This document shows positions 48,212 through 58,061 of a stretch of 64,000 nt of DNA, piece by piece. The notes under the pieces were generated by a model. The model was not told where the DNA came from, made no database searches, and saw only the letters and a program-made list of their open reading frames with translations. Numbering within the stretch: position 1 is the first letter of the stretch; each line of letters begins with the position of its first letter. The stretch comes from the human T2T-CHM13v2.0 reference genome, Homo sapiens, in the NCBI RefSeq assembly GCF_009914755.1, contig NC_060926.1; one strand, 5' to 3'. The translations under genes and the position numbers were made by a program.

Positions 48212-49793
48212 GTTCATTGAATTTCTTTAAGAAGATTATTCTGGCCAGGTGCGGTGGCTCACGCCTGTAATCCCAGCACTTTGGGAGGCCGAGGCGGGTG
48301 GATCACGAGGTCAGGAGTTTGAGACCAGCCTGACTAACATGGTGAAACCCCGTCTCTACTAAAAATACAAAAATTAGCCAGGTGTGGTGGTGGGCACCTA
48401 TAATCCCAGCTACTCGGGAGGCTGAGGCAGGAGAATCGCTTGAACCCGGGAGGTGGAGGTTGCAGTGAGCTGAGATGATCATTCCACTGCACTCCAGCCT
48501 GGGCGACAAGAGCAAGACTCCGTCTCCAAAACAAAGAAGATTATTGTGAATTCTTTGTCTGCCATTTAATATCATTTAATAGATCTCTTTTTTTGGAGAC
48601 CATTGTTGAGGCTTTGCTGGTGCTGTTTTTTTTTTGTTTTGTTTTTGTTTTTTGGAAGTGTCATAATTTCCTAGTTGTTTGCAATCCTTGTCTTCTGGTG
48701 CTGCTGTCTTTGCATTTGAAGAGACAGCTACCTTTTCTGGGTTTCTGGTGTGTTTGGCAGGGATAAACCTTCACTGTTTAGCTAGTGATTATGGATGGGT
48801 CAAGGATAACAACACTGGGGAACAGAACTTGTTTGGATTCTCTAAATGGCTGAGCTGTTGCTTTTAGTCTGAGTGGAGGTGGGGCAGCTGGCTGGGCTCC
48901 GCGATTATGCTGAGCTGCTGGATGAGTACTGCAATCACCTCTAATTTGGCCAGCCCACACGGTATATTCCATGGCCATATGGTACTGCTATTTGAGTTCA
49001 TCAGTTGGACAGGGTTGCAGGAGGGGCCCGGAGGTTAGGTGCAGTTGCTGATTGGAATGGACAGGACCAGTTGCTATGCAAAGCAGAAATGTACAATGGA
49101 GGTTTACCTCTCTGCCTTCACAGGGTTTTGAGGTGAGCTTTGAGGCTGAATTGAGTGCTATTTAAATTCTCGGGGAGGGGTACAAATCTAACCCCTGATT
49201 TTCGCCAAGTGCTGTTAACCTCCCAGGAGTTGTGGAACTAGCCCCTGCTCTTTGCTGAAATTCGCTGTAGTAGTTGTCTCCATTCCTGGGTGGGATCCCA
49301 AGGTACAATCCAAGGCTAGTCCTACAGGTTGGCCATCTAAGGATTCCAGGCAGGTAAAACTTTTTATCAGTTTTGCGAGTGACCAGCTGAGTTTCATGAG
49401 CTCTGATACCATTGGCAGGTATGCAGAGCTACCACCAAGATGTGTGCTGGGTGCTGTGGGCTCCACTTTCTTTGTTTCTACCTGAACCTGGGTAGTCTAG
49501 CCACCCTGGAAAGTGTTTTAAAATGCTAGGGAATCTAAATGTCAATCTCTGCTTCCATTTTTTCTCTGTAGAAAGCATGATCCCTGGGGGATCCTTTCTA
49601 TGTAGTACTATGCTGACTTGGGGTTGGGGAGGGGCAGCACAGTCAAAGACCATTTCTCTTACCATTCCCATGTGGGTTTTATTACATTTTATGAGCCACC
49701 TAGGTGACTCAGGCTTATTTCCAGTTTGGGAGGCTTTCACCAAGGCATTTTTGTCTGTGGATAGTTGCTAGTTAAACGTTTTGTGGCAGGTAG
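48212..49793 (-). mobile_element. Old L1M 5'UTR/ORF1 start; its extreme 5' end resumes at 57691-57735 beyond the ERV block
   Basis: GATTATT.TGAATTCTTTGTC (ORF1 antisense); TTTGTGGCAGGTAG joins TGCAGTCTACGACCTCCTATTCCTCCATC, an L1M 5'-terminus motif. Confidence 0.65.
48243..48533 (+). mobile_element. Alu (AluSg-like)
   Basis: TSD AAGAAGATTATT(C/G)T (48229-48242, 48534-48547). Confidence 0.96.
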
Positions 49794-49886
49794 TGCAACT
49801 GAACTCAGGTTTAGCTGCTCACTGCTCAAAAGCCAAAACTTATTTGGGTGAGGACACAAAGCCAAATCACATCAGGTTATAAAACC

Positions 49887-50422
49887 TGAAACTAACCCAA
49901 TAGTCCCATAGACAGCTGTCTTTGGATAAACATAGAAATTGATCCTCTGGTTTTAATCCATTTCCCCATTAGAAAAAAAAAAGAGTGCAGCTCACTGTCA
50001 GTGCAGTATTCTCCAGGCAAACTTAAGGCTTGAAACTTCACATTTGTTTTATCTGAGTTCCTTCCTCAGGAAAAGATTCCCAGGCCTTTCAAAAAGTATC
50101 AGCGAACTGAAACTCACCCAATCAAGGCATGCAAATAATGAAATGCCAGGCCCCTCATTCATCATGATTGCCTTCTTACTCCTGAGATCCTGTTTTATAT
50201 ATAGTTACATTTCTTCCTTGCTATATAAACCCCTAATTTCAGTCAATCAGGGAGATGGATTTGAGACTGAGCTCTCATCTTCTCTACCGGAACACCCGCT
50301 TAAAGCCTTCTTCCTTGGCACTTGGCAATACTCATTGTGCCAGTCATTAGCTTTCTATACAGTAAGCAGCAGAACCTAGATGAACCCCAGGACCTAGACG
50401 AACCCCTGGTGTTTTGGTAACA
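49887..50422 (+). mobile_element. LOR1a-like ERV1 LTR
   Basis: TGAAACTAACCCAATAGTCCCATAGACAG ... CCCCTGGTGTTTTGGTAACA; TATA-like CTATATAAA at ~50221. Confidence 0.75.
49957..50022. mobile_element. MER75A-like piggyBac MITE inside the LTR
   Basis: TTAA at 49953-49956 and 50023-50026; CCATTTCCC..TTAGAAAAAAAA..GTGCAGCTC..CAGTATTCTC..GGCAAAC. Confidence 0.75.
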
Positions 50423-51282
50423 AGACCATCCTTGCAGCTGGGATTTTAGGATCCTAGCTGGGATTTCTGGGAACTCAGCAGCTGCTGAGAATGCTTTTGT
50501 CTCAGGGAATCTCTCTTCTTTCCCCTTCATGGCATCAGCTGATTGCAATGCTTAGTCAGTGCAAGGTAAAGCAGTATCTGGGAGTTGATGGATCCAAGAT
50601 TGAGTAAGTGAAACTGATGTGCACACCAGGAATCTTCAGCCTCTGCCTTTTGGGCTTGTGCCATTTGGACCTAGCATGAGTCATTTGTGGTACTGTTTGG
50701 TGTCAGATAAGATTTTTGAAGACATCTCTTCAGTCTCCCTTTTTTTGGGAATTAGCTTGGGAATGCTCTGTTTTAGGTTTTGTATGTTTTTTGGTTTTTA
50801 ATTGTTTAAAAGGTTGTTTAAAAGGTGAAACATGAAAGTTCAAAGACATGCCAGATTTTCTGGGACTCCAGCTGGTCACATATTATCCCCATTTTTGTGC
50901 ACATTTTAAACTGATGGGCAAATTACAGCAAGAAAAATTCAGGGCTCAAATGGTTAACCAGCAACTATAGAGTTAAGTAGAGGCTTCTAAAGCTCCCTAA
51001 TTCTCTCTTTTCTGTCTACTTTGAATCTGCTGCTATTGAGCTACTAATATTGAGATAAAACTCACTTAATTCAAAGTTACTTGGGATATTTTGTTTTTCT
51101 TATACAGTTCAGCCAGTTCTAGTTAAAATGTAAACATTGAAAACTCTTGAAACTTAAAAAAAAGGGTAAAAGAGATTTCAAAAATTAAACTGGTATCTAA
51201 AGTGCTTTACCAAAAATTTTGGTCAACAGCTTTCATGCAATTACCTATTGAGACAAAGTTTAGCCATGTAGACAGGTTCCAA

Positions 51283-51591
51283 TTTTTTTTTTTTTTTTTT
51301 TTTTTTTGAGATGGAGTCTCATTCTGTTGCCCAGGCTGGAGTACAGTGGAGCGATCTCAGCTCACTGCCAGCTCCGCCTCCGGAGTTCACGCCATTCTCC
51401 TGCCTTAGCCTCCCGAGTAGCTGGGACTTACAGGCACCCGCCACCACTCCCAGCTAATTTTTTTTGTATTTTTAGTAGAGACAGGGTTTCACCGTGCTAG
51501 CCAGGATGGTCTCAGTCTCCGGACCTTGTGATCTACCTGCCTTGGCCTCCCAAAGTGCTGGGATTACAGGCATGAGCCACCGTGCCCGGCC
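51283..51591 (-). mobile_element. AluY
   Basis: CACGCCATTCTCC, ACCGTG.TAGCCAGGATGGTCTC. Confidence 0.95.
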
Positions 51592-56395: not shown

Positions 56396-56500
56396 CAGGT
56401 ACAATTAACAGTGGGAAGCAAATTTACTGACTTTCATATTGATATGGGGACCATATATTCTCTAGTTAACTCCTGTCTATCCTCTGTTTCAAAGACTAGT
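56396..56500 (+). pseudogene. Retroviral aspartic protease remnant
   Basis: Manual translation from 56396: QVQLTVGSKFTDFHIDMGTIYSLVN, matching the gammaretroviral pattern V.LTVG....FL.DTGA.YS. Confidence 0.7.
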
Positions 56501-56586
56501 ATTTCAAAATACTAGACCACTGCTAGTATTTCAAATTACTAGACCACTGCTAGTATTCCAAAATACTAGACCACTGCTAGTATTTT
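56496..56586. repeat. 27-bp tandem repeat x3.4 with an internal hairpin
   Basis: CTAGTATTTCAAAATACTAGACCACTG at 56496, with variants at 56523 and 56550. Confidence 0.92.
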
Positions 56587-57233
56587 GGTATTTTCTATCA
56601 AATGGTTACAGAAATGTCACCATTTGATTACAGAAATGTCAGGAGAAATTGTGACTTTCCCCTTCCTACAACGTTTTGATTGTCATCTTGGAGACCACAA
56701 TATAAGGGAAAAAGTAAAAGATTAAACATATGCTACAAAAAAAATACATTGTCAAAATATGTCCAAAACCCCATTTGACTTGAGAGAAGGTGTTGTCAGT
56801 TGCCCTGTTATAAATGTAAATGGCTTCCTGAAACAGGCACAAATTGAGTCCTTTTAACATATTTTATAGTAGGCCATTTCAAGTTTCTGCCATGGTGGGA
56901 AATCCAACTGATACAAAAAAAAAAAAAAAAGCCAAATTTGTTAAGACTCCAGGCACAATACTAACTCCTGTTTATAAATTTACTTCTAATGGGAACACTC
57001 ACCACAGAAATGGCCCTATATACTTTCCAACTTTGGACTGGGTCCTCCTAAGGACCCAAAAATAAAACAACAAACAAACAAACAAAACAAAGACCTGAAC
57101 ATAGCATGCTGCCAGGTCAAACAGTTTCAATCCAAAGTCCCCAATCAACACCCTCATTCAGCAGGAAGTAACTAGACTAGAGTAGATGCCCCTTTTCCAT
57201 AGAAATGGAATAAAAAATTGACAGTGGAGAATT

Positions 57234-57686
57234 TGTAACTGAGGCAGTCACTCCCTTCTTAAAAGTAAATAGTCATTCTTTCACAATGCTTTACTGTGTA
57301 CTTGCTTAAGAACTCCAAGAACTAACCTTGAGATAAAATCAAGGCTGTGAAATACCCACACCTGGAAAAAAGCTGAGCATTCAATGTTCAATCCTGCTGC
57401 AATCTAGCTGATGCCAGCCAGACTACCAAATGGCCTGTTACTCAAGATAATCATTGGAACAGGACATGCTCATCTGCACTTAGCTAACTTCTGCACAGTT
57501 TCCCAAGCCCCTTCCTTTTAAAACTCCTTTGGCCAGCCAGAAAAAGGGGAGATGGTCTTTACAATGCAAGTTCACCATCTCCTTAAGTTGTTAGCTCCAG
57601 AATAAACCTGCTTTTCCTCACACCATCCCTTGTTTCTGGAGTTTTGGCTTCTGAGTGAAGAGCAGCTGAACCCGAGTTTGGTTATA
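57234..57686 (+). mobile_element. ERV1 3' LTR (MER66-like, uncertain)
   Basis: Preceded by purine-rich GACAGTGGAGAATT; starts TGTAACTGA; AATAAA at 57601; ends GAGTTTGGTTATA. Confidence 0.75.
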
Positions 57687-58061
57687 GTAGTGCAGTCTAC
57701 GACCTCCTATTCCTCCATCCTGCTGACACCACTTCACATTATTTCCTGAAATTTGTATTCTTAAAAGTGATATAGACAAGGTTTAGTCAGATGTGAGAAG
57801 GCCCTTATTTCTTTTGGACCATGGATTTTTAGGAGACTTAGAAAGTGTGCAAAACCATGAAGTGCAAATGCATAGCAAAAAGCAGCGGAAATTTGTACTT
57901 TGGTCTTCATCTAAGTATTTCCGTAGACAAGCATCATAAACCATGGGCTATTGTAAACATCCTAAATCAGCGACAGTTTACTCCATGGCACTTATGTGAA
58001 AAATAAAATGATTAAATAGATTGCTTCCTAATACTTGAATTAAGTTTCAGGTTTTGATTTT

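What the first reader, a model, noticed from the sequence alone, without database searches (positions are those of the whole stretch)
49790..57694. ERV block bounded by inverted LTR 3' ends yet flanked by a direct TSD
Seen: the left end 49794-49840 (TGCAACTGAACTCAGGTTTAGCTGCTCACTGCTCAAAAGCCAAAACT) is the reverse complement of the right LTR's last 47 nt (57640-57686), 36/47 identical with nearly all differences transitions. GTAG flanks both sides directly, and the match extends to GTAGTGCA if the first four bases are counted as target. The host L1M continues across the block. Established: normal proviruses have direct LTRs, with U3 at left and U5 at right. Inference: integration using two U5 ends, an in-place flip of the 5' LTR via its short terminal inverted repeats followed by deletion, or a composite transposon-like unit made from two opposed LTRs.
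Basis: partly seen in the sequence, partly recalled or inferred. Interest (0 to 1): 0.7.

Follow-up and report, generated by a model that had tools for sequence, protein, structure and literature searches.

The report
Provirus with a flipped left LTR
An ancient, dead retroviral insertion on human chromosome 2 has its left end-repeat back to front yet sits inside an ordinary 4-base target duplication, as does a relative on chromosome 1, likely because the viral DNA was mis-copied before it integrated.

Summary
Observation confirmed. 49794-49840 is the reverse complement of the right LTR's last 47 nt (36/47; best shuffled match 28). GTAG flanks both ends, and the host repeat runs straight across. 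The family's LTRs do not begin with this 47-mer, and its normal proviruses have direct LTRs and 4-bp TSDs, so this is one insertion bounded by two U5 ends. It is not unique. A sister-subfamily provirus on chr1 has its 5' LTR inverted between host L1 and an intact PBS, a normal 3' LTR end and an ATAG TSD. Besides the window, 1 of 29 scored 5' LTRs was inverted and 0 of 14 scored 3' LTRs (not significant). Both inverted LTRs are mostly deleted. Best reading: a 5'-LTR flip, most likely from fold-back priming during reverse transcription at a 13-14-nt match between the U5|PBS and PPT|U3 junctions, followed by normal integration. An in-place genomic flip at the 9-10-nt terminal repeats is a close rival. 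I found no sign of a replicating composite transposon. Inverted LTRs have precedent in print (guppy PrERV-1, HERV-K124). Real and unusual, but a dead-end fossil: a new variant of a known kind.

The parts
49790..49793 (+). left copy of the 4-bp target-site duplication (GTAG), in a host repeat that continues at 57691
   Evidence: family TSD length
49794..49840 (-). remnant of the inverted 5' LTR: its U5 end, pointing outward
   Evidence: 36/47 to the right LTR end; matches the U5 ends of 17 other family LTRs compared
49841..49874 (-). terminal 34 nt of a MaLR-type (MST/THE1, name and orientation recalled) LTR; the deletion junction with the U5 remnant lies at about 49840/49841
   Evidence: 91% to window copy 25127-25160, 85% to 24673-24703; many genome matches to this part only
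49875..49886 (+). 12 nt that fit either an LTR|PBS junction or the leader about 140 nt downstream; unresolved
   Evidence: compared with 16 relatives
49887..50422 (+). unrelated high-copy solo LTR inserted later (MER39/MER34-like, name recalled); flanks AAACC/AGACC
   Evidence: 1380 first-look candidates, matches begin at 49887; absent from the chr8 provirus; no similarity to the block's own LTR above shuffles
50423..57233 (+). non-coding internal region (class I, MER4-group type, name recalled), starting about 140 nt into the leader; PBS lost; ends in the PPT
   Evidence: collinear with chr8 copy L033 at 69-75%; longest stop-to-stop frame 105 aa, 3 frames of 90 aa or more
51284..51591 (-). 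Alu inserted later
   Evidence: absent from L033
54491..54859 (-). MaLR-type solo LTR inserted later, 5-bp TSD CTAAA (orientation recalled)
57234..57686 (+). 3' LTR, complete, normal orientation after the PPT
   Evidence: 41 genome matches among 40 scored candidates
57687..57690 (+). right copy of the TSD (GTAG); host repeat resumes

Best explanation
The block is one old, non-coding ERV provirus whose 5' LTR points backwards, so that U5 ends face the host on both sides of a normal 4-bp duplication; the flip most likely arose during reverse transcription, before integration. Inferred steps: (1) The growing minus strand, having copied the PBS, its short spacer and the first bases of U5, would end in 13-14 nt that can pair with the PPT|U3 junction on its own strand. 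(2) Extension from there would copy the 3' LTR in the opposite sense. (3) The second strand would be primed at that new U5 end, for example by strong-stop DNA, giving a linear DNA with U5 attachment ends on both sides. (4) Integrase would insert it normally. (5) Later MaLR, solo-LTR and Alu insertions are seen directly; one or two deletions likely cut the inverted LTR to 47 nt and removed the PBS. With no forward promoter and opposed R regions the element would be a dead end, so each case would be an independent event.
For: Single insertion: TSD of family length and host continuity. Independent second case on chr1: ATAG | inverted 5' LTR (140 nt: about 17 nt resembling a U3 start plus the last 120 nt) | intact PBS and leader ... 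normal 3' LTR end | ATAG, with host L1 sequence on both sides. LTR-pair divergence is like that of an ordinary copy (K2P 0.31 on 47 sites, chr1 0.23 on 105, chr8 direct pair 0.22 on 414). The junction match is longer in viral DNA than at a chromosomal LTR: most printed PPT|U3 and reversed U5|PBS junctions share an A/T-rich spacer of about 4 nt ahead of the 9-10-nt terminal repeat, and the window and chr1 host flanks do not. Both full cases are 5' LTRs, as this route predicts. Two further relatives show inverted LTR copies that a simple in-place flip cannot give: chr13 L068 has U5 at both ends of its 5' LTR; chr2 L043 has inverted LTR+PBS+leader arms, U3 outward, flanks GATT/GTTT. Inversions occur in present-day proviruses: one provirus with inversions and one with inversions plus deletion among 88 HIV-1 proviruses sequenced (PMC9278108, passages).
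Against: Nothing here separates pre- from post-integration flips directly: the terminal repeats are near-identical, so the outer end carries no diagnostic base. The 5' bias is not significant (2/30 vs 0/14, Fisher p=1.0). The spacer match is only about 4 nt and is degenerate in several copies. In the window the inner end of the flipped LTR is deleted, so exactness there rests on chr1. The 47-mer shares no rare base with the right LTR except one carried by 8 of 17 other copies, and it is closer to some other copies (41/45 to L002) than to the right LTR (several of those copies were found by searching with it). The chr13 case has no 3' LTR, so no TSD test was possible. The priming of the second strand is conjecture.
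Confidence: 0.45

Rival explanations
1. In-place flip after integration: host replication or repair switched template at the 9-10-nt inverted repeats that cap the 5' LTR and inverted it between TSD and PBS; deletions followed.
For: It gives exactly the chr1 anatomy. [quoted passage not shown] Other inversions exist in these old copies (a 250-nt internal one in L010/L035). For guppy PrERV-1 the authors suggest recombination, with doubt (PMC5210030, passages).
Against: The microinversions in that abstract are 17-33 nt, not about 450. It predicts flipped 3' LTRs equally often: 0 of 14 were seen, too few to matter. It does not by itself give L068 or L043.
Confidence: 0.35
2. Two-donor or half-aberrant integration: U5 ends of two different viral DNAs were inserted together at one site and their inner parts joined by host repair.
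For: It gives two U5 ends and a normal TSD. The 47-mer is no closer to the right LTR than to other family LTRs. Host-mediated joining with inversions and insertions is described for aberrant HIV integrations (PMC5041404, passages). L043 and L068 could be of this kind.
Against: On chr1 the inverted LTR abuts the PBS exactly at the LTR terminus, which random repair would rarely give. The described aberrant integrations usually lose the short TSD.
Confidence: 0.1
3. Two independent insertions: a minus-strand solo LTR made the GTAG duplication, a same-family provirus inserted into it, and deletions (one through the shared terminal repeat) removed the rest.
For: No private variant ties the two LTR pieces together. 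The chr13 case might be of this kind.
Against: It needs a same-family nested insertion and two deletions, one of them exact. No other piece of the family LTR lies in 49841-50460. It would have to have happened again on chr1.
Confidence: 0.07
4. A composite, transposon-like unit with opposed LTRs that was itself mobile.
For: U5 ends on both sides are in principle an integrase substrate. An ERV-related element resembling a DNA transposon is cited in print (Hughes and Coffin 2002; title seen in a reference list only).
Against: No second copy spans the left junction (0 of 18 other matches). The chr1 and chr13 junctions are also single among the scored candidates. The cases belong to different LTR subfamilies. 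There is no coding capacity.
Confidence: 0.03

Closest known systems
Class I (ERV1) MER4-group non-autonomous proviruses (family name recalled; no repeat library was available); represented here by the chr8 copy L033
   Same: Collinear non-coding interior, PPT, about 450-nt LTR with TG...CA-type termini, 4-bp TSD.
   Different: The 5' LTR is inverted and cut to 47 nt, and the PBS is lost; L033 and the other scored copies have direct LTRs.
Guppy foamy-like PrERV-1 with an inverted 5' LTR (PMC5210030, two passages read)
   Same: A provirus with its 5' LTR inverted relative to the 3' LTR.
   Different: Different virus class and host, and young. The passages read give no TSD, junction or mechanism beyond a tentative 'recombination'.
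HERV-K124 (PMC3625200, passages); HML-2 locus c7_C 'flanked by an LTR in opposite orientation' (PMC2525661, passage); element of Hughes and Coffin 2002 (PMID 12408960, not held; title only)
   Same: Human ERV loci with inverted, partly deleted LTRs; the authors call LTR inversion rare and invoke inversion plus template switching.
   Different: In K124 the internal and 3' LTRs are the inverted ones, with a duplicated interior. Here only the 5' LTR is flipped, U5 outward. I could not read the 2002 paper, so it may already describe this geometry or mechanism.
DIRS tyrosine-recombinase retrotransposons with inverted LTRs (search listing only)
   Same: Inverted terminal LTRs.
   Different: In DIRS the inversion is the normal replicating structure and integration uses a tyrosine recombinase. 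Here it is a rare aberration with an integrase-type TSD.

Membership tests
ERV provirus (single integrase-mediated insertion) | short direct TSD of the family's length in a continuous host sequence | tested here: met
   GTAG/GTAG; 4-bp TSDs in relatives; host continuous in 3 of 3 paralogues
ERV provirus (single integrase-mediated insertion) | two LTRs in direct orientation | tested here: not met
   left remnant is on the opposite strand
ERV provirus (single integrase-mediated insertion) | PPT directly before the 3' LTR | tested here: met
   junction like that of 7 relatives printed
ERV provirus (single integrase-mediated insertion) | PBS directly after the 5' LTR | tested here: not met
   about 130-140 nt of PBS and leader are absent in the window; present in the chr1 case
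ERV provirus (single integrase-mediated insertion) | both LTR pieces derive from one DNA molecule | tested here: inconclusive
   divergence like the chr8 pair, but no private shared variant
ERV1 MER4 group (non-autonomous) | match to named Dfam/Repbase LTR and internal models | not testable with these tools
   no repeat library; names are recalled
ERV1 MER4 group (non-autonomous) | interior without long gag/pol/env frames | tested here: met
   longest stop-to-stop frame 105 aa; no translated family search was run
Composite or DNA-transposon-like mobile unit | several dispersed copies sharing the same inverted ends, each with its own TSD | tested here: not met
   0 of 18 other matches span the left junction; the search scores limited candidates
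DIRS-type retrotransposon | tyrosine recombinase, internal complementary repeat, no integrase-type TSD | tested here: not met
   4-bp TSD and ERV-type PPT are present, no long frames; recombinase and ICR were not searched for specifically

The most novel reading that the evidence does not exclude
This ERV clan had a recurring reverse-transcription error, minus-strand fold-back at matching U5|PBS and PPT|U3 junctions, that made U5-U5 DNA which integrated normally in a few percent of germ-line insertions. Such proviruses form an overlooked structural class that direct-LTR finders cannot see, and their frequency across families should follow the length of that junction match.
Probability: 0.3. 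Interest if true: 0.62.

Novelty: new variant of a known kind. Interest (0 to 1): 0.42.

Why it matters
If the flip predates integration, these loci record an error pathway of retroviral DNA synthesis and show that integrase accepts two U5 ends in vivo with a normal duplication. If it postdates integration, they show that LTR terminal repeats of 9-10 nt are enough to invert about 450 nt of chromosome, which would be invisible in solo LTRs. Either way, pipelines that need direct LTR pairs miss or mis-date such loci, and an intact flipped 5' LTR would aim its promoter at the upstream host. A genome-wide count of 5' versus 3' flips can decide the question. The window locus itself is intergenic, eroded, and has no sign of function.

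Tried and rejected
(1) 'Family LTR starts with the 47-mer': rejected. (2) 8-bp TSD: rejected. (3) A chr10 match that seemed to extend the 47-mer into the left flank is an ordinary solo LTR of a sister type; the extension is probably chance. (4) 55600-56380 looked like a nested LTR but is normal family interior. (5) No further piece of the family LTR was found in 49841-50460 on either strand (scores 100 and 48 against a shuffle maximum of 105). (6) Placing the 12 nt at 49875-49886: unresolved. (7) Tying the 47-mer to the right LTR by private variants: none found. (8) 3' LTR and TSD of the chr13 case: element truncated. (9) 5' versus 3' bias: not significant. (10) Literature: searches listed no paper on this locus or on U5-outward 5'-LTR flips in this ERV group. 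Hughes and Coffin 2002 and 2005 were not held; PMC3228705 has no passage on inversions. The library lacks most subscription papers and Repbase/Dfam notes, and no supplements were read, so absence from print is not shown. (11) Earlier scan findings were not available.
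Full report
Observation. The left 47 nt (49794-49840) match the reverse complement of the right LTR end at 36 of 47 sites, with 10 transitions and 1 transversion. This is the top inverted pair in the region and far above chance: the next best window match scores 26 and the shuffle maximum is 28. Four of the 11 differences fall in two dinucleotides that differ as methyl-CpG decay on opposite strands would give. GTAG flanks both ends. A search with the left flank gave 49 matches. 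In the 3 paralogues fetched, the right flank picks up within 0-5 nt of where the left flank stops. The block is therefore a single insertion site.

Anatomy, left to right: TSD; inverted U5 remnant; the terminal 34 nt of a MaLR-type LTR; 12 ambiguous nt; an unrelated high-copy solo LTR at 49887-50422; the family interior from about 140 nt into the leader, collinear with an ordinary chr8 provirus and without frames over 105 aa, carrying a later Alu and a later MaLR LTR; PPT; complete 3' LTR; TSD. The fewest events that fit are a flipped 5' LTR, a MaLR insertion at or near the leader, and one deletion from position 48 of the flipped LTR into that MaLR. If the 12 nt are the LTR|PBS junction, a second deletion is needed. 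Family names (MER4 group, MST/THE1, MER39-like, L1M) are recalled; no repeat library was available.

The family. Its LTRs start with a different sequence after the shared terminal repeat, and they make 4-bp TSDs. The chr8 copy has direct LTRs, 73% alike. K2P distances of LTR pairs are 0.31 (window, 47 sites), 0.23 (chr1, 105 sites) and 0.22 (chr8, 414 sites). With a recalled neutral rate near 2.2e-9 per site per year this is very roughly 50-70 million years.

A second case. In the chr1 relative (L034, L053; a sister LTR subfamily) the leader and PBS are intact and the LTR in front of them lies on the opposite strand. It keeps about 17 nt resembling a U3 start next to the PBS and the last 120 nt of the LTR facing the host. 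Its 3' LTR is normally oriented but cut to about 150 nt, and ATAG flanks both ends with L1 sequence on either side. This shows the flip with both ends at LTR termini, and that it happened independently at least twice.

Frequency. Clan copies with a leader, window excluded: 29 could be scored, 28 with a direct U5|PBS junction and 1 inverted (95% interval 0.1-18%); 2 more were undetermined, and one more direct copy appeared. Most direct calls rest on a match across the inner junction only. Of the 27 upstream pieces, 6 were clan copies, 15 were co-oriented copies of another family sharing interior sequence, and 6 were undetermined; 2 loci were not fetched. For 3' LTRs, 14 of 21 examined were direct, 0 inverted and 7 undetermined. 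Fisher p=1.0 for 2/30 vs 0/14. Each search scored at most 40 candidates, so these are samples. Two other oddities turned up. L068 (chr13) has an inverted U5/R copy at the outer end of an otherwise direct half-LTR, with no 3' LTR left to test. L043 (chr2, 213.7 Mb) has inverted LTR+PBS+leader arms, 396/502 identical, with U3 outward and GATT/GTTT flanks.

Mechanism. Shown: one site, two outward U5 ends, and on chr1 an inverted LTR against an intact PBS. Inferred: how it flipped. In viral DNA the reversed U5|PBS junction and the PPT|U3 junction share the 9-10-nt terminal repeat plus a spacer of about 4 nt. A minus strand ending just past the PBS could pair there and copy the 3' LTR backwards. 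Priming of the other strand at the new U5 end would give a U5-U5 linear DNA that integrase treats normally (0.45). Host template switching at the terminal repeats after integration yields the same product (0.35). Short inverted repeats flank human microinversions of 17-33 nt (PMC8755829, abstract). Two-donor integration (0.10), nested insertions (0.07) and a mobile composite (0.03) are weaker. Both flipped LTRs are largely deleted, which fits the known instability of long inverted repeats (abstract starts). This is weak evidence, since chr1's normal 3' LTR is also cut. Against my reading: no statistical 5' bias, a short and degenerate spacer match, and no private variant linking the window's two LTR pieces.

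Known or new. Inverted LTRs are on record: guppy PrERV-1 with an inverted 5' LTR (PMC5210030, passages), HERV-K124 (PMC3625200, passages), HML-2 c7_C (PMC2525661, passage), and an ERV-related element resembling a DNA transposon (Hughes and Coffin 2002, title only). Inversions in fresh HIV proviruses and host-repaired aberrant ends are also described (PMC9278108 and PMC5041404, passages). My searches listed nothing on this locus or on repeated U5-outward 5'-LTR flips in this group, but the key 2002 paper and repeat-database notes could not be read.

Verdict. A real, unusual, dead-end structure and a new variant of a known kind. Interest 0.42. It would rise to about 0.62 if a genome-wide count shows a 5'-specific class that tracks junction homology.

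Noticed in passing
L034 8272-8411 and L053 3964-4110 (chr1:114.793-114.807 Mb): Second provirus with an inverted, internally deleted 5' LTR against an intact PBS, a normal 3' LTR end and an ATAG TSD. Its interior is interrupted by what looks like an L1 with an SVA-like insert (names recalled).
   Followed up: yes
L043 71-2620 (chr2:213.746-213.748 Mb): Element bounded by two inverted LTR+PBS+leader arms with U3 ends outward, 79% alike, flanks GATT/GTTT: a possible fold-back or two-donor product.
   Followed up: partly
L068 288-645 (chr13:35.505 Mb): 5' LTR with an inverted U5/R copy at its outer end and a direct 3' half before the PBS; the 3' LTR is missing.
   Followed up: partly
L010 129-380 (chr4:32.688 Mb): About 250 nt of the family interior (window 55223-55474) is inverted in this copy.
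   Followed up: no
L037 315-318 and 7169-7172 (chr22:39.37 Mb): A normal relative has the same TSD, GTAG, also followed by TGC on the right: chance or a target preference.
   Followed up: no
window 56496-56585: Three tandem copies of a 27-nt unit inside the interior; a short tandem duplication also opens the leader at 50424-50470.
   Followed up: no
L045 about 1850-1860 (chr14:14.912 Mb): Another LTR sits within the last 11 nt of this copy's 5' LTR, leaving its orientation unresolved.
   Followed up: partly
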